A stretch of 43,714 bases of DNA from the sequence record OP018999.1; one strand, 5' to 3'. The notes under the pieces were generated by a model, which saw only the letters and a list, made by a program, of their open reading frames with translations, did no database searches and was not told where the DNA came from. Source of the stretch: Escherichia phage NTNC80A. A program made the translations under genes and the position numbers. Positions 947 to 42,921 of the stretch are shown here, piece by piece. Positions within the stretch are counted from its first letter, which is position 1; every line of letters starts with the position of its first letter.

Positions 947-1099
947 CAGGTAATATCTTAGTGTACACAAGGGCAGGCTTAGGTTTGCCCTTAGTGTATT
1001 CCAAAGGAGGTGGTATGTTATCTTTGTTGTGTATACTCAGTGATGTACTAGGTCGTAAGAGGTACATTCTTAGTGAAGACCAAATAAGGGATGAGAAGA

Positions 1100-1363
1100 T
1101 ACGGAGGTCGCTCACAAAGTAACCAAAGTCAAAATTTTGATGTAGGCGTGTGTCAGCTCTCTCGCCCTCGCCCTCGCCGGGACGTCCCCATAGGGTGCCT
1201 AGGCATTTCTAGGGCAGCGGGAGGGCCGCCACGGGCCTTTCTTAGTGAGGGCCAAAGGTTGCCTAGGCTAGCCGGAGGAGGGCCGAGGAGGGCCATTCAG
1301 GGCCGCTTGACAGCGTGTGTGGGCGTGGGCTATCTGTCCGTTTGTCGCTACGCTCCGCACTCA
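1100..1363. other. GC-rich repetitive tract, candidate terminal-repeat / concatemer-junction region
   Basis: Abrupt GC-rich non-coding DNA with short repeats (CTCGCC x3, GCCTAGG x2, GAGGGCC x3) between the last late gene and the first early promoter, where T7-group genomes carry their terminal redundancy. Confidence 0.35.
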
Positions 1364-1516
1364 CTACCTGACGTGTACCTTAGTTATTACCTTAGTAACT
1401 TCCTTATCGTGTACCTTGAGATAGTCTTAGTTACTACCTTAGTCACTTCCTTAGTAGCTACCTTAGTGAGTGGCTTAGTGGCTATCTATTGCTGTCTTAG
1501 TGTTACCTTAGTGATT
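1364..1516. repeat. tandem array of ~12 imperfect 12-bp repeats (core ACCTTAGT)
   Basis: Read directly: taccttagttat / taccttagtaac / ttccttatcgtg / taccttgagata / gtcttagttac / taccttagtcac / ttccttagtagc / taccttagtgag / tggcttagtggc ... taccttagtgat. Resembles the short repeat arrays next to the T7 terminal repeat. Confidence 0.7.
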
Positions 1517-1659
1517 GCATAGCTAAAGCTATAAGATGCAAATAGGTCGCGGTCGGTAGGCCGCTAAAGAAAGAGAATAGTAATAAGATGCAGTAGGAGG
1601 AACACCAGAAACCTAGCCAACCTAGCCTATCCTAGCCTTGTATCTATTGCTTTTCCTTA

Positions 1660-1675
1660 GTCTCACATGTTAGAC
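1660..1675. repeat. imperfect copy (15/16) of the 16-bp palindrome GTCTCACATGTGAGAC
   Basis: Sequence gtctcacatgtTagac. Confidence 0.5.
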
Positions 1676-1742
1676 AACCTAGGTTTATCTTAGTAGTTGT
1701 GACATGTATCACATAAATAATCTATCTTAGTGAAATTTAGTG

Positions 1743-1771
1743 TTGACACAGGCAATAGCTGGTAGTACATT
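1743..1771 (+). promoter_or_regulatory. host sigma70-type early promoter
   Basis: -35 TTGACA 1743-1748, 17-bp spacer, -10 TACATT 1766-1771. Leader contains GCTCTTTAACAATTTG (1822-1837), shared with the second early promoter. Confidence 0.55.
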
Positions 1772-1892
1772 ACAGTCATCGGGAGGCAACATAGCCAAAC
1801 GGTAGGTAACTAAGTTACCTTGCTCTTTAACAATTTGCTTAGTGTAACCTATGTATGCCGTGGTTAATTACTTATTGAATGAGGAGTTAACT

Positions 1893-6931: not shown

Positions 6932-6954
6932 ATTTACCGGACACTATAGGAGAG
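6932..6954 (+). promoter_or_regulatory. phage RNAP promoter (SP6-type)
   Basis: atttaccggacactataggagag; +1 G at 6949. Confidence 0.7.
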
Positions 6955-38198: not shown

Positions 38199-38393
38199 AT
38201 GATAAATTCCGAACTGGTAGACAATGGTGTGAAGTTAGCGCCACCTGCATTAGTCTCAGGTGGGTACTTCCTCGGTATCAGTTGGGACAATTGGGTACTG
38301 ATAGCAACATTCATTTATACAGTGTTGCAGATTGGCGATTGGTTCTATACTAAATATACAATATGGAGGAAGAAGCGTGAGCGTGCACAATAA
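38199..38393 (+). CDS. holin (T7 gp17.5-like)
   Basis: 64 aa, one hydrophobic segment and basic C-terminus RKKRERAQ, between fibre adaptor and small terminase as in T7. Confidence 0.7.
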   Translation: MINSELVDNGVKLAPPALVSGGYFLGISWDNWVLIATFIYTVLQIGDWFYTKYTIWRKKRERAQ

Positions 38394-38676
38394 ACATGCA
38401 GCCACAGAGGATGAAGTAGGCATCCTGCATGGCGCTATTACGAAGATGTTTAATAAGAAAGCAAAGGCTATACTGGACACTATAGAAGCAGACCCTGATT
38501 CTGCTATGCACCTAGTGTCAGGTAAAGATATTGGAGCCATGTGTAAATGGGTTTTAGATAACGGCATTACTGCCACCCCTGCTGCACAGCAGGAGGAGTC
38601 CAAGTTATCTAAGCGCCTCAAGGCCATCCGAGAGGCGTCCAGTGGCAAGATCATTCAGTTCACTAAGGAGGATTGA
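38377..38676 (+). CDS. terminase small subunit (T7 gp18-like)
   Basis: GTG 38377 with SD GGAGGA 6 nt upstream (ORF track 38332); VSVHNKHAATEDEVGILHGAI N-terminus; directly precedes the large subunit. Confidence 0.7.
   Translation: MSVHNKHAATEDEVGILHGAITKMFNKKAKAILDTIEADPDSAMHLVSGKDIGAMCKWVLDNGITATPAAQQEESKLSKRLKAIREASSGKIIQFTKED
38468..38490 (+). promoter_or_regulatory. promoter-like sequence inside the small terminase gene
   Basis: ctatactggacactatagaagcag: core matches consensus, two upstream mismatches. Confidence 0.4.
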
Positions 38677-40571
38677 TGGCTAAGGCTAGAGAATCACAAG
38701 CGGAGGCTCTTGCCAGATGGGAGATGCTACACGAGTTACAGCAGACCTTCCCTTATACCGCAGAAGGTTTGCTTCTCTTTGCTGATACAGTTATTCATAA
38801 TTTAATTGCAGGTAGTCCTCATCTGATTCGTATGCAGGCAGACATCTTGAAGTTCCTATTCTACGGACACAAGTATCGCCTCATCGAAGCGCCCCGTGGT
38901 ATCGCTAAAACTACACTGGCAGCAATCTATACGGTGTTCCGTATCATTCATGAGCCTCATAAGCGCATCATGGTTGTATCCCAAAACGCCAAGCGAGCAG
39001 AGGAAATTGCAGGTTGGGTGGTCAAAATATTCCGAGGATTGGACTTCCTAGAGTTTATGCTGCCAGACATCTACGCTGGCGACCGTGCATCCGTTAAGGC
39101 ATTCGAGATTCACTATACACTGCGTGGAAGCGACAAGTCCCCTTCTGTATCCTGCTACTCTATTGAAGCAGGTATGCAGGGTGCTCGTGCAGACATCATT
39201 CTAGCAGATGACGTTGAATCTATGCAGAATGCGCGTACCGCAGCAGGCCGTGCATTGCTTGAGGAATTGACCAAGGAGTTTGAATCTATCAACCAGTTTG
39301 GTGATATTATCTACCTTGGTACACCACAGAATGTGAACTCTATTTACAACAACCTCCCTGCACGCGGTTATTCTGTTCGCATCTGGACTGCTCGTTACCC
39401 TTCGGTAGAGCAAGAGCAATGTTATGGTGACTTCCTTGCACCTATGATCGTGCAGGATATGAAGGACAACCCAGCATTGCGAACAGGTTATGGTTTGGAT
39501 GACAACAGTGGCGCTCCTTGTGCACCTGAAATGTATGATGATGATGTCCTGATTGAGAAGGAAATCTCACAAGGTGCTGCTAAGTTCCAGCTTCAGTTCA
39601 TGCTTAACACTCGCATGATGGATGCTGACAGATACCCATTACGCCTGAACAATCTAATCTTCACCTCGTTCGGTACAGAGGAAGTCCCTGTGATGCCTAC
39701 GTGGAGTAATGATTCCATAAACATCATTGGTGATGCACCTAAGTATGGTAACAAGCCTACGGATTTCATGTACAGACCTGTAGCTCGCCCATACGAATGG
39801 GGTGCTGTCTCCCGCAAGATTATGTATATTGACCCTGCGGGTGGCGGTAAGAACGGGGATGAGACGGGTGTAGCCATCGTATTCCTGCACGGCACATTCA
39901 TTTATGTGTATCAGTGCTTTGGTGTACCTGGCGGATACCGAGAATCGTCCCTGAATCGCATTGTGCAGGCCGCAAAGCAAGCGGGTGTTAAAGAGGTATT
40001 CATTGAGAAAAACTTTGGTCATGGCGCGTTTGAGGCTGTTATAAAGCCATACTTTGAACGAGAATGGCCTGTGACCATTGAAGAGGATTACGCCACTGGT
40101 CAAAAAGAACTCCGTATCATAGAGACATTGGAGCCGCTGATGACCGCGCATAGACTTATCTTCAATGCCGAGATGGTCAAGTCGGATTTCGCTTCAGTAC
40201 AGAACTACCCGCTTGAACTGCGGATGTCTTATAGTCTGTTCCATCAAATGTCGAACATCACTATTGAGAAGAACAGCCTCAGGCATGATGACCGCTTAGA
40301 CGCCCTGTATGGCGCTGTGCGTCAATTAACTTCTCAGATAGACTATGACGAGGTTACTCGTATTAATCGCCTCAGAGCGCAGGAGATGCGCGATTATATA
40401 CAGGCGATGAACACACCTAAACTTCGTCGGGCTATGCTGTACGGAGATTATGGTGATGAGCGAAGAACAACCAACACATCCTTAGCAATGCAGCAGAGAG
40501 TTTACGGGCAGAATTGGAGGAACCGCTCTGGTTCTAGAAATACACTTTCTTCAAGGATTTCAAGGATTTAG
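38676..40571 (+). CDS. terminase large subunit (T7 gp19-like)
   Basis: Walker A PRGIAKTT, GARADIILADDVE and IYLGTPQ match T7 gp19 motifs as recalled; ATG 38676 after SD AAGGAGGA. Confidence 0.95.
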   Translation: MAKARESQAEALARWEMLHELQQTFPYTAEGLLLFADTVIHNLIAGSPHLIRMQADILKFLFYGHKYRLIEAPRGIAKTTLAAIYTVFRIIHEPHKRIMVVSQNAKRAEEIAGWVVKIFRGLDFLEFMLPDIYAGDRASVKAFEIHYTLRGSDKSPSVSCYSIEAGMQGARADIILADDVESMQNARTAAGRALLEELTKEFESINQFGDIIYLGTPQNVNSIYNNLPARGYSVRIWTARYPSVEQEQCYGDFLAPMIVQDMKDNPALRTGYGLDDNSGAPCAPEMYDDDVLIEKEISQGAAKFQLQFMLNTRMMDADRYPLRLNNLIFTSFGTEEVPVMPTWSNDSINIIGDAPKYGNKPTDFMYRPVARPYEWGAVSRKIMYIDPAGGGKNGDETGVAIVFLHGTFIYVYQCFGVPGGYRESSLNRIVQAAKQAGVKEVFIEKNFGHGAFEAVIKPYFEREWPVTIEEDYATGQKELRIIETLEPLMTAHRLIFNAEMVKSDFASVQNYPLELRMSYSLFHQMSNITIEKNSLRHDDRLDALYGAVRQLTSQIDYDEVTRINRLRAQEMRDYIQAMNTPKLRRAMLYGDYGDERRTTNTSLAMQQRVYGQNWRNRSGSRNTLSSRISRI

Positions 40572-42898: not shown

Positions 42899-42921
42899 AT
42901 TTACTGGACACTATAGAAGAG
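42899..42921 (+). promoter_or_regulatory. phage RNAP promoter (consensus) driving the fibre genes
   Basis: atttactggacactatagaagag; +1 G at 42916. Confidence 0.75.

What the first reader, a model, noticed from the sequence alone, without database searches (positions are those of the whole stretch)
1100..1516. Probable genome terminus: GC-rich repetitive tract followed by a 12-bp tandem repeat array
All coding and promoter density stops between 946 and 1740. In its place are a GC-rich tract with short repeats and about 12 copies of a 12-bp unit with core ACCTTAGT. T7 has short repeat arrays flanking its terminal repeat that take part in concatemer processing. If this is the terminus, the window start is an arbitrary rotation and the natural left end lies near 1100-1150.
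Basis: partly seen in the sequence, partly recalled or inferred. Interest (0 to 1): 0.5.

Follow-up and report, generated by a model that had tools for sequence, protein, structure and literature searches.

The report
Terminal repeat of an SP6-like phage
This stretch is the place where the linear chromosome of an SP6/K1-5-like (T7-supergroup) phage begins and ends: one collapsed copy of its ~175-bp terminal repeat, followed by a phased array of short repeats like the one next to T7's terminal repeat. It is an ordinary, already known kind of feature.

Summary
The window is a rotated whole genome of an SP6/K1-5-like podophage (Molineuxvirinae) with T7-type terminase genes.

- **Terminal repeat:** the GC-rich tract 1158-1332 (67% GC against 46% genome-wide) aligns end to end with the terminal repeats in the SP6 (174 bp) and K1-5 (234 bp) records. 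Both boundaries are nearly invariant in every relative that covers them: ...GTGTCAGC|TCTCTCG on the left and ...GGGCTA|TCTGT on the right. By homology the left end is at 1158 (1158-1162), not 1100-1150, and the right end is at 1332. The assembly holds one collapsed copy.
- **Pause-like motif:** the right boundary carries TATCTGTC. This is one base off ATCTGTT, the class II pause signal at T7's concatemer junction. ATCTGT occurs twice on the coding strand and 22 times on the other strand.
- **Repeat array:** 1376-1518 holds 12 phased 12-bp units, 9 with an exact CTTAGT, all on the + strand. Its position, copy number, period and orientation match T7's array to the right of its repeat (CCTAAAG, 13-bp period). 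The motif is conserved and the spacers are not, and lineage variants exist (CTTATG, CATAGTG).

The array's function is unproven. My best guess is an accessory terminase or packaging signal. Physical ends still need read or virion-DNA data. Interest is low: a new member of a known kind.

The parts
957..1074 (+). Sparse + strand CTTAGT copies (957, 990, 1069) in the right-end unique sequence. This is the positional counterpart of the sparse CTAA[AG]G copies left of T7's right-end repeat. Two of the three copies flank or lie in a strong hairpin at 963-999.
1113..1157 (+). The most conserved non-coding block, immediately left of the left-end cut. It includes the perfect palindrome TCAAAATTTTGA (1128-1139, an A4T4 tract) and GGCGTGTGTCAGC. 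I propose it as a terminase recognition or cleavage context for the left-end cut; this is an inference.
   Evidence: Mean identity to 8 relatives is 0.95. The boundary alignment covers 12 sequences including the window. Conservation ignores the reading frame of the overlapping small ORF.
1158..1332 (+). Single collapsed copy of the direct terminal repeat (175 bp, or 171 bp if the end is as recorded for K1-5). Left end TCTCTCGCCC..., right end ...GGGCGTGGGCTA.
   Evidence: End-to-end alignment with SP6's 174-bp repeat and with both boundaries of K1-5's 234-bp repeat. No second copy in the window. GC 67%.
1161..1178 (+). (CTCGCC)x3 at the extreme left end, conserved as (CTCGSCC)-type repeats in relatives.
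1186..1195 (+). CCCCATAGGG, a near-palindrome 29-38 nt from the left end. It is conserved in all SP6-like relatives aligned. T7 carries CCCCCATAGGGGG 26-38 nt from its left end.
1241..1258 (+). Copy of the motif inside the repeat, CTTAGTGAGGGCCAAAGG. It is a conserved island in an otherwise variable repeat interior.
   Evidence: Invariant CTTAGTG and GGGCC. The 1240-1259 window scores 0.77 identity against 0.38-0.54 around it. Composite motif search.
1305..1332 (+). Conserved right-hand block of the repeat, GCTTGACAGCGTGTGTGGGCGTGGGCTA, ending at the right-end cut (1332|1333).
   Evidence: (0.87).
1331..1344 (+). TATCTGTCCGTTTG, a class II (concatemer-junction) pause-like motif straddling the right boundary of the repeat. 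It matches 6 of 7 positions of ATCTGTT; position 7 is C.
   Evidence: 15 of the 19 sequences examined (18 relatives plus the window) have the exact TATCTGTT. The window, L029, Kp7 and PP1 have TATCTGTC. T7 has CCCT|ATCTGTT. ATCTGT occurs 2 times on + and 22 times on -.
1376..1518 (+). Phased array of 12 units of 11-13 bp (consensus TACCTTAGTnnn), all in the same orientation. Positional and architectural analogue of T7's array to the right of its terminal repeat.
   Evidence: The same spacing pattern 35,12,12,12,12,22,11 occurs in SP6, GRNsp03, UAB_Phi78 and pSL2.
1519..1680 (+). Highly conserved non-coding block after the array. It contains the palindrome ATAGCTAAAGCTAT, ATAAGATGCA twice, the hairpin GCGGTCGGTAGGCCGC and (AACCTAGCC)x3. 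Function unknown.
   Evidence: Identity 0.81-0.93 in 20-bp windows. Alignment. Folds. No Rfam match.
1656..1843 (+). Four further isolated + strand CTTAGT copies (1656, 1689, 1726, 1838) scattered through the leader. CTTAGTG and TTTAGTG lie directly before the -35 hexamer of the early promoter.
1743..1771 (+). First sigma-70-like early promoter (TTGACA, 17 nt, TACATT), 586 nt from the left end.
   Evidence: Conserved TTGACA in relatives.
38332..40571 (+). Terminase small subunit (38332-38676, T7 gp18 family) and large subunit (38673-40571, T7-type nuclease domain). These are the enzymes expected to act on the junction.

Best explanation
The region is the concatemer junction, that is, the physical terminus of a T7-supergroup (SP6/K1-5-like) phage chromosome, present once in a circularly collapsed assembly.

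**What is shown by homology.** Window 1158-1332 is the direct terminal repeat. In virion DNA it should be present at both ends. The left end would be at 1157|1158 (TCTCTCG...) and the right end at 1332|1333 (...GGGCTA).

**What is inferred from the T7 and T3 paradigm.**
- Replication gives head-to-tail concatemers that share one repeat per junction.
- The T7-type terminase recognises the conserved blocks at the two boundaries, cuts there, and the repeat is duplicated during processing.
- The phage RNA polymerase arrives from the last late promoter (42899-42919) and meets a class II-like pause motif (TATCTGTC) exactly at the right boundary, as in T7.

**The array.** The 12-unit CTTAGT array at 1376-1518, together with scattered copies on both sides and one inside the repeat, is the counterpart of T7's short-repeat arrays. 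I think it is most likely a set of same-strand, roughly once-per-turn binding sites for a sequence-specific protein. The best candidate is the terminase small subunit. The array would mark the junction or slow the motor as it approaches the left-end cut, in the manner of lambda cosB or cosQ.

**Sub-confidences.** Terminus and terminal repeat about 0.9. Exact ends within 5 nt about 0.75. Pause-site role about 0.4. Array as a packaging accessory about 0.35.
For: **Homology to recorded ends**
- SP6's record carries an exact 174-bp repeat at both ends and K1-5's carries 234 bp.
- The window aligns to both boundaries. ...GTGTCAG(C/G)|TCTCTCG is conserved in all 12 sequences that cover the left side. 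GGGCTA|TCTGT is invariant in 17 sequences and is also present in PP1, while Kp7 has GGGGTA|TCTGT.
- Two SP6 records (AY370673 and AY288927) and other deposited genomes start or end at window-equivalent 1158-1162.
- The ends of UAB_Phi78 were mapped by Bal31 digestion and run-off sequencing as a 179-bp repeat (PMC4837284).

**Conservation pattern**
- Conservation peaks at the two boundaries (0.87-0.95), while the repeat interior scores only 0.38-0.54. This is the pattern expected for cut and recognition sites.

**Genome context**
- The terminase genes are T7-type: small subunit PF11123, large subunit PF22530.
- The window holds one copy of the repeat and starts at a late-gene start.
- The region is non-coding: the 143-codon ORF is not open in relatives.

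**T7 shows the same anatomy in its own record**
- ^TCTC at the left end, CCCCCATAGGGGG 26-38 nt in, and ATCTGTT immediately after the repeat.
- 12-13 CCTAAAG-type units at 13-bp spacing, plus sparse copies left of the repeat and inside it.

**Pause motif**
- The exact TATCTGTT occurs in 15 of the 19 sequences examined, window included.
- ATCTGT is strongly depleted on the sense strand. It occurs 2 times against 7-13 expected and 22 on the other strand, ranking 34th of 3142 hexamers for under-representation.
- The concatemer-junction site is a class II pause/termination signal in T7.

**Array as binding sites**
- The motif positions carry information (T at -3: 0.9-1.5 bits; T at +5: 1.5-2.0 bits). 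The spacers carry 0.1-0.4 bits, and CTTAG elsewhere in the genome carries 0 bits at +5.
- The unit pattern is conserved across relatives classified in four genera, Zindervirus, Vectrevirus, Ulipvirus and Axomammavirus.
- Whole arrays have switched motif in some lineages: CTTATG in L029 and CATAGTG in Kp7.
- In T7, the small terminase subunit gp18 recognises PacB and the large subunit gp19 cuts at PacC (PMC9860248).
Against: - No reads or virion DNA are available. Duplication of 1158-1332 and the exact cut positions rest on homology, and reported left ends differ by up to 4 nt between SP6 and K1-5. The UAB_Phi78 and pSL2 records annotate repeats that start 15 nt further left, with correspondingly shifted right ends.
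- The window's pause motif has C at position 7. For T7 RNA polymerase any base change in ATCTGTT is reported to abolish termination, and SP6-type polymerase behaviour at this site is unknown to me.
- Sense-strand depletion of ATCTGT is strong but not unique; many hexamers are equally asymmetric because of coding bias.
- There is no direct evidence that any protein binds the array.
- From memory and unverified here: T7 packaging signals map to the repeat and its immediate flanks, and the region left of T7's right repeat is dispensable.
- The L029 small terminase subunit is 79% identical to the window's, while a phage with a CTTAGT array (L039) is 88% identical. With n=1 this neither supports nor excludes co-variation.
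- L029 keeps CTTAGTG on the right-end side while its array uses CTTATG.
Confidence: 0.88

Rival explanations
1. The terminus is as described, but the CTTAGT array serves DNA replication or end maintenance rather than packaging. It could be a secondary origin, priming sites close to the left end, or an entry platform for a host or phage replication protein.
For: - In T7 the array is followed immediately by promoter phiOL at 405, which from memory can act as a secondary origin.
- An AT-rich stretch (31% GC, 1651-1750) follows the conserved block.
- The relative Kp7 carries at least 5 exact DnaA-box sequences (TGTGGATAA) inside its terminal repeat, so host replication proteins may be recruited to termini in this group.
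Against: - No SP6-type phage promoter lies between 1333 and 3174 with up to 3 mismatches, so there is no phiOL counterpart.
- The window has no DnaA boxes in the repeat or the array (sequence).
- From memory and unverified, the SP6 primase recognition triplet is GCA. By my reading of the sequence it occurs once at the array's edge.
Confidence: 0.12
2. The array and the scattered CTTAGT copies act at the start of infection. They would be binding sites for a host nucleoid protein or RNA polymerase accessory protein, or for an early phage protein, that organises or protects the first-entering roughly 600 bp and tunes the early promoter.
For: - The copies extend beyond the array through the leader (1656, 1689, 1726, 1838).
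- CTTAGTG and TTTAGTG sit directly upstream of the -35 hexamer at 1743. Relatives show TAGTG(T/C)TTGACA at the homologous promoter, with the motif variant matching the array variant in Kp7 (ATAGTGCTTGACA).
- The left end is the end that enters the cell first in T7 (established knowledge).
Against: - Copies also lie on the right-end side (957-1074) and inside the repeat. That fits a junction-wide role better than a role confined to the leading end.
- The promoter-adjacent copy is a single homologous site across relatives, not independent evidence.
- No candidate protein is identified.
Confidence: 0.12
3. The array is a selectively neutral slippage or satellite product tolerated in a non-coding buffer next to the end, with no sequence-specific function.
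For: - From Table 4 of PMC5923468: copy number in the equivalent region of Yersinia T7-like phages varies from 11 to 34 repeats between close relatives.
- The window has one more unit than SP6 at the array's left edge.
Against: - Individual units, including the degenerate ones (TTCCTTATCGTGTACCTT), are conserved position by position across relatives in Zindervirus, Vectrevirus and Ulipvirus. In the same alignment the adjacent terminal-repeat interior is only 38-54% identical.
- The motif is conserved while the spacers are not.
- All copies are on one strand.
- The same architecture is kept with a different heptamer in T7.
Confidence: 0.05
4. The region is not a fixed terminus. On this view the phage packages by the headful from a pac site, or the tract encodes a repeat-rich protein (ORF 1091-1522).
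For: - A 143-codon ATG ORF spans 1091-1522.
- Several public records annotate hypothetical proteins over the homologous stretch.
Against: - The ORF is not open in 8 relatives, where the longest stop-free + strand stretch is 46-102 codons. By my reading of the alignment, the gaps in this stretch are not multiples of three.
- The terminase is T7-type, and SP6-like large subunits cluster with short-exact-repeat packagers.
- The region is homologous to chromosome ends carried at both ends of the SP6 and K1-5 records.
Confidence: 0.02

Closest known systems
Salmonella phage SP6 genome ends (174-bp direct terminal repeat; AY370673 / NC_004831)
   Same: - Homologous sequence. Window 1158-1332 aligns end to end with the repeat, with identical boundary contexts.
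- The same internal CTTAGTG...CCAAAGG island.
- The same post-repeat spacer, the same array spacing (35,12,12,12,12,22,11), and the same conserved block and early promoter downstream.
   Different: - About 84% identity overall, and the repeat interior diverges.
- The window has one extra array unit at the left edge and TATCTGTC instead of TATCTGTT.
- The rest of the window genome is Vectrevirus-like (88-90% identity), not Zindervirus-like.
Escherichia phage K1-5 / K1E genome ends (Vectrevirus; 234-bp repeat in K1-5)
   Same: - The same left and right boundary sequences. The left flank and first 20 nt are identical to the window.
- The same kind of CTTAG array after the repeat, and the same downstream conserved block.
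   Different: - Longer repeat with a different interior.
- Array spacing pattern 24,11,13,12,12,11,13,10,13.
- The recorded left end is 4 nt further in (TCGCCC...).
Phage T7 concatemer junction: 160-bp terminal repeat, class II pause site, and flanking short-repeat arrays
   Same: - Same order of elements: sparse heptamer copies, repeat starting ^TCTC with CCCCCATAGGGGG 26-38 nt in, (A)TCTGT at the right boundary.
- Then 12-13 same-strand heptamer units at a 12-13 bp period, then host-polymerase early promoters.
- T7-type terminase genes.
   Different: - The heptamer is CCTAAAG at 13 bp in T7 and CCTTAGT at 12 bp here.
- No detectable sequence homology in the repeat interior.
- No phiOL-like phage promoter after the array.
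- The window's pause motif differs at position 7.
Phage lambda cos (cosQ-cosN-cosB)
   Same: Functional analogy only: a cut site flanked by repeated terminase small-subunit binding sites and by an element needed for the termination cut.
   Different: No homology. Lambda makes cohesive ends rather than a duplicated terminal repeat, its R sites are three 16-bp elements with an IHF site, and the comparison rests on inference.

Membership tests
T7-supergroup chromosome end with short exact direct terminal repeat | Sequence homologous to a terminal repeat carried at both ends of a relative's record, with both boundaries conserved | tested here: met
   Window 1158-1332 aligned to SP6 (174 bp) and K1-5 (234 bp), with boundaries conserved in the 12 (left) and 17 (right) sequences compared.
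T7-supergroup chromosome end with short exact direct terminal repeat | T7-type terminase (gp18-like small subunit, gp19-like large subunit) | tested here: met
   PF11123 at 4.9e-16 and PF22530 at 2.5e-36, with PHROG terminase families. SP6-like large subunits cluster with short-repeat packagers (PMC4837284).
T7-supergroup chromosome end with short exact direct terminal repeat | The repeat is physically present at both ends of virion DNA (double coverage, read-start pile-ups, run-off sequencing) | not testable with these tools
   Only an assembled sequence with one copy is available.
T7-type short-repeat arrays flanking the terminal repeat | Non-coding array directly inside the left end, between the terminal repeat and the early host-polymerase promoters | tested here: met
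   The array is at 1376-1518, 44 nt after the repeat, and the promoter is at 1743. T7's array is at 177-340 and promoter A1 at 498.
T7-type short-repeat arrays flanking the terminal repeat | About a dozen copies of a heptamer at a 12-13 bp period, all in one orientation, with sparse copies on the right-end side and inside the repeat | tested here: met
   12 units, 9 with exact CTTAGT, all on +. Further copies at 957, 990, 1069 and 1241. T7 spacing is 13 bp, with copies at 19, 43 and 62 inside the repeat and 4 upstream of the right repeat.
T7-type short-repeat arrays flanking the terminal repeat | Heptamer sequence CCTAAAG (sequence homology to the T7/T3 arrays) | tested here: not met
   The consensus here is TACCTTAGT. 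It is therefore an architectural analogue, possibly a diverged homologue, and not a sequence-level member.
Class II (concatemer-junction) pause/termination signal of T7-like RNA polymerases | Exact ATCTGTT preceded by A, C or T on the non-template strand | tested here: not met
   The window has TATCTGTC, matching 6 of 7. 15 of the 19 sequences examined have the exact motif; L029, Kp7 and PP1 share the C variant.
Class II (concatemer-junction) pause/termination signal of T7-like RNA polymerases | Located at the right edge of the terminal repeat in the concatemer junction, in the sense orientation | tested here: met
   ATCTGTC is at 1332-1338 and straddles the 1332|1333 boundary. T7 has CCCT|ATCTGTT.
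Class II (concatemer-junction) pause/termination signal of T7-like RNA polymerases | Run of T (U) shortly downstream | tested here: inconclusive
   CCGTTTG, three T after three bases. Relatives have TCGTTTG or TCCTTTT. The requirement is described for T7 polymerase.
Class II (concatemer-junction) pause/termination signal of T7-like RNA polymerases | Actual pausing or termination by the cognate polymerase | not testable with these tools
   Needs in vitro transcription. The only indirect support is sense-strand depletion of ATCTGT: 2 observed, 7-13 expected, 22 on the antisense strand.

The most novel reading that the evidence does not exclude
The phased heptamer arrays next to the terminal repeat are a third, so far uncharacterised cis-acting packaging signal of the T7 supergroup, alongside the repeat-borne recognition and cleavage sites. 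They would act as a same-strand docking or arrest platform read by the small terminase subunit or another phage protein. The heptamer would co-evolve with its reader by lineage: CCTAAAG in T7, CCTTAGT in SP6/K1-5-like phages, CCTTATG in L029 and CCATAGTG in Kp7-like phages.
Probability: 0.3. Interest if true: 0.5.

Novelty: new member of a known kind. Interest (0 to 1): 0.2.

Why it matters
**Practical value.** The result gives the natural coordinates of this genome, and a correct record should start there: left end at 1158, right end at 1332, with the 175 bp duplicated in the virion, which would be about 43,889 bp long. It also shows that 'hypothetical proteins' annotated over this stretch in several public relatives are probably spurious.

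**Biological value.** The result adds nothing new in kind, because terminal repeats of SP6-like phages have been in the public records for years. It does underline three points:
- The T7 junction anatomy (TCTC end, CCCCATAGGG, ATCTGT at the right boundary, phased heptamer array) is shared across two subfamilies despite no overall sequence similarity.
- The pause motif tolerates a C at position 7 in at least four natural genomes.
- The arrays behave like conserved binding sites whose function has, to my knowledge, never been established.

Tried and rejected
- **Known RNA families.** An Rfam scan of 700-2200 at E<=1 found nothing.
- **Secondary structure.** The terminal repeat folded as DNA (z -1.0), the array folded as RNA (z -1.7) and the block 1505-1700 (z -1.8) are not clearly structured. 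I rejected a structure-based explanation for the repeat and the array. Only the hairpin at 963-999 is strong.
- **Protein-coding reading of ORF 1091-1522.** Rejected, because the ORF is not open in relatives.
- **A phage promoter after the array, like T7 phiOL.** No SP6-type promoter lies between 1333 and 3174.
- **Co-variation between the small terminase subunit and the heptamer.** Only one CTTATG-array contig (L029) was found in two IMG/VR scans. Its small subunit is 79% identical to the window's, so the test is inconclusive. Most hits in the second scan were chance 15-mer matches.
- **Solved structure for the small terminase subunit.** None was found by sequence.
- **Literature on T7 short-repeat arrays, pacB, and the SP6/K1-5 genome papers.** The original papers (Dunn & Studier 1983; Chung & Hinkle 1990; Scholl 2004; Dobbins 2004; Pajunen 2001) are not held. 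Statements about them are from memory and marked as such.
- **CCAAAG as a second motif.** It is only mildly enriched (32 observed, 22.6 expected). The composite CTTAGTG-N5-CMAARG occurs twice. I left this as a minor note.
- **Primase-site idea.** T7's array is rich in GACC on the top strand, by my reading of the sequence. The idea was not pursued, because the SP6-type primase recognition site is not verified here and is nearly absent from the array.
Full report
**1. What is in the sequence**

- Between the end of a small conserved gene (797-946, PHROG 2423) and the first sigma-70-like promoter (TTGACA, 17 nt, TACATT at 1743-1771) there is almost no credible coding sequence.
- The one candidate is a 35-codon ORF with a strong Shine-Dalgarno sequence at 1015-1122. 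It occupies the position of 'gene 49' in SP6 and K1-5, but it matches no family and is not conserved in sequence.
- GC rises to 0.57-0.67 over 1101-1350, against 0.38-0.45 on both sides and 0.456 genome-wide.
- The GC-rich tract contains (CTCGCC)x3, (GAGGAGGGCC)x2 and other short repeats.
- From 1376 to 1518 there are 12 units in a 12-bp register. Nine have an exact CTTAGT, and three are degenerate but conserved as such in relatives.
- CTTAGT occurs 46 times in the genome. Eighteen copies lie in 957-1843, and 17 of those are on the + strand. Nine copies fall in the 143-bp array where 0.03 are expected.

**2. What the genome is**

- The window is a complete, rotated genome of an SP6/K1-5-like podophage. 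Thirteen SP6-type promoters, all on the + strand, are spread over the genome: 9 match the 21-mer with up to 3 mismatches, and 4 more are exact ACACTATAG cores at 6941, 10103, 38477 and 40582.
- The body is 88-90% identical over about 85% coverage to Vectrevirus genomes.
- Small and large terminase subunits of the T7 type lie at 38332-40571.
- Position 1 is the start codon of a tail-spike module ORF, directly after the stop codon of the preceding late gene. There is no terminal overlap, and only one copy of 1158-1332.

**3. The terminal repeat**

- The SP6 record (43,769 bp) carries an exact 174-bp repeat at both ends, and the K1-5 record carries 234 bp.
- SP6's repeat, TCTCTCGGCC...GGGCGTGGGCTA, aligns end to end with window 1158-1332 (TCTCTCGCCC...GGGCGTGGGCTA).
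- K1-5's repeat begins 4 nt further in, at the equivalent of 1162, and ends at the same GGGCTA.
- Other deposited genomes begin at the equivalent of 1161 (VEc3, K1-ULIP33) or end at the equivalent of 1159 (Pm5460).
- For UAB_Phi78, a 179-bp repeat was mapped with Bal31 digestion and run-off sequencing (PMC4837284). Its record annotates the repeat 15 nt further left, so the exact ends carry an uncertainty of a few nucleotides.
- The right boundary GGGCTA|TCTGT is invariant in 17 sequences, and the left context TCAAAATTTTGAT(R)TAGGCGTGTGTCAG(S)|TCTCTCG is conserved in all 12 sequences that cover it.
- Conservation is highest exactly at the boundaries (0.95 for 1113-1157, 0.89 for 1158-1195, 0.87 for 1301-1332). 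It is lowest in the repeat interior (0.38-0.54), apart from an island around the internal CTTAGTG...CCAAAGG at 1241-1258.
- This pattern suggests recognition and cleavage sites at the edges with a freely evolving spacer between them.
- The 143-codon ORF over the tract is not open in any relative.

**4. Comparison with T7**

T7's own record shows the same order of parts:
- sparse CTAA[AG]G copies left of the right-end repeat;
- a repeat starting ^TCTC, with CCCCCATAGGGGG 26-38 nt in (here CCCCATAGGG at 1186-1195);
- ATCTGTT immediately after the repeat (here TA|TCTGTC);
- 12-13 CCTAAAG-type units at a 13-bp period (here 12 CCTTAGT-type units at a 12-bp period);
- then the early host-polymerase promoters.

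ATCTGTT at the T7 concatemer junction is the natural class II pause/termination signal of T7 RNA polymerase.

- In the SP6-like group, 15 of the 19 sequences examined carry the exact TATCTGTT at this spot. The window, IMG/VR contig L029, Klebsiella phage Kp7 and Pectobacterium phage PP1 carry TATCTGTC.
- In the window, ATCTGT occurs only twice on the sense strand (1332 and 8508) and 22 times on the antisense strand, with 7-13 expected from Markov models of order 1 to 4. That places it 34th of 3142 hexamers for under-representation, and most hexamers ranked above it are restriction-site palindromes.
- The depletion is consistent with selection against this signal in transcribed sense everywhere except the junction. 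Coding bias produces other asymmetries of similar size, so the support is moderate.
- The last phage promoter upstream of the junction is at 42899-42919.
- A strong conserved hairpin without a U-run at 963-999 lies between that promoter and the junction. It could reduce the transcription that reaches the repeat.

**5. The array**

- Anchoring on CTTAG, the array copies carry information at -3 (T) and +5 (T), giving the consensus TACCTTAGT. The spacer positions carry almost none. CTTAG elsewhere in the genome carries none at +5.
- The unit pattern is shared with SP6, GRNsp03, UAB_Phi78 and pSL2 (spacing 35,12,12,12,12,22,11). A second pattern is shared by K1-5, CrRp3 and Sem1, with K1E close to it. 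Klebsiella (Ulipvirus) and Pectobacterium (Axomammavirus) relatives have the same kind of array.
- Whole-array motif variants exist: CTTATG in L029, and CATAGTG in Kp7 and partly in Proteus phage Pm5460.
- A conserved motif, free spacers, strict strand orientation, roughly one copy per helical turn, and lineage-specific heptamers are the signature of an array of protein-binding sites. They are not the signature of a neutral satellite.
- Which protein reads the array is unknown.
- In T7 the small terminase subunit recognises PacB and the large subunit cuts at PacC (PMC9860248). From memory, those signals map to the repeat and its immediate flanks.
- For that reason I treat the array as an accessory signal, for example a docking or arrest site before the left-end cut, and give this a probability of only about 0.35.
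- Replication-related and infection-entry roles remain open.
- One attempt to test co-variation with the small terminase subunit was inconclusive, because only one variant contig was available.

**6. Verdict**

- Three corrections apply. The left end is at 1158 (1158-1162). The GC-rich tract is the terminal repeat itself, ending at 1332. A functional role for the arrays in concatemer processing is an assumption, not an established fact.
- The feature is a new member of a known kind and of low interest.
- Its practical value is correct genome orientation and annotation.
- Physical confirmation needs read-start and coverage analysis or run-off sequencing of virion DNA.

Noticed in passing
window 963-999: A strong hairpin (16-bp stem, dG -24 kcal/mol, z -5) lies directly after the gene-48-like ORF. 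It is kept in K1-5 and UAB_Phi78 through G-U-compatible changes and has no U-run. It could be a phage-polymerase terminator, an RNase III site or a 3' stabiliser, and it would modulate how much transcription reaches the junction.
   Followed up: partly
window 1015-1122: A 35-codon ORF with a strong AGGAGG ribosome-binding site sits at the position of SP6/K1-5 'gene 49'. Its sequence is unrelated to K1-5's membrane-like peptide and it matches no PHROG family. Its last codons overlap a DNA block that is conserved regardless of reading frame.
   Followed up: partly
window 1519-1680: A non-coding block after the array is among the most conserved stretches around the terminus (0.81-0.93 identity). 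It contains the palindrome ATAGCTAAAGCTAT, ATAAGATGCA twice (1531, 1583), the hairpin GCGGTCGGTAGGCCGC and (AACCTAGCC)x3. It has no Rfam match and only marginal RNA structure (z -1.8). Function unknown.
   Followed up: partly
window 1483-1493 and 1641-1651: TATCTATTGCT occurs twice on the + strand. It is one base off the class II core ATCTGTT, and the second copy is followed by TTTT. Both copies are conserved in the Zindervirus relatives aligned (SP6, UAB_Phi78, GRNsp03, pSL2). They could be additional weak pause signals.
   Followed up: no
whole window: Several 6-bp palindromes are completely absent: AAGCTT (17 expected), CTGCAG (18.5), GATATC (15), GCATGC (14), GAATTC (6.4) and GGCGCC (7.5). 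Four CCWGG-containing hexamers are absent as well. This looks like restriction-site and Dcm-site avoidance.
   Followed up: no
L029 (IMGVR_UViG_3300045988_000301), about 40-130 nt after its terminal repeat: This SP6-like contig has a 12-bp array that uses CTTATG (6 copies) instead of CTTAGT, while a CTTAGTG copy remains on the right-end side. The array is shorter and is followed directly by a phage-promoter-like sequence. Its small terminase subunit is 79% identical to the window's.
   Followed up: partly
L158 (Klebsiella phage Kp7, ON148527.1) 1-238: The 238-bp terminal repeat of this relative contains at least 5 exact copies of TGTGGATAA, the reverse complement of the DnaA box TTATCCACA, plus near copies. 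Its post-repeat array uses CATAGTG. Host DnaA may be recruited to the termini of this lineage.
   Followed up: no
window 1158-1760 compared with 3000-27000: The terminus is SP6/Zindervirus-type (175-bp repeat, SP6 array spacing; best hits GRNsp03 at 87% and SP6 at 84%). The genome body is Vectrevirus-like (88-90%). This suggests exchange of the terminal module between genera.
   Followed up: partly
L003, L006, L007, L008, L009 (public relatives): Several deposited genomes annotate 'hypothetical protein' CDSs across the terminal repeat and array, for example UAB_Phi78 gp01 at 104-388 and CrRp3 cds6. Open frames there are not conserved between relatives, so these calls are probably spurious.
   Followed up: partly
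window 1726-1748: CTTAGTG and TTTAGTG lie directly upstream of the -35 hexamer TTGACA of the first early promoter. Relatives show TAGTG(T/C)TTGACA at the homologous promoter, and Kp7 has its own array variant there (ATAGTGCTTGACA).
   Followed up: no
window 8508: This is the only other sense-strand ATCTGT in the genome (ATCTGTA). I did not examine it for context or conservation.
   Followed up: no
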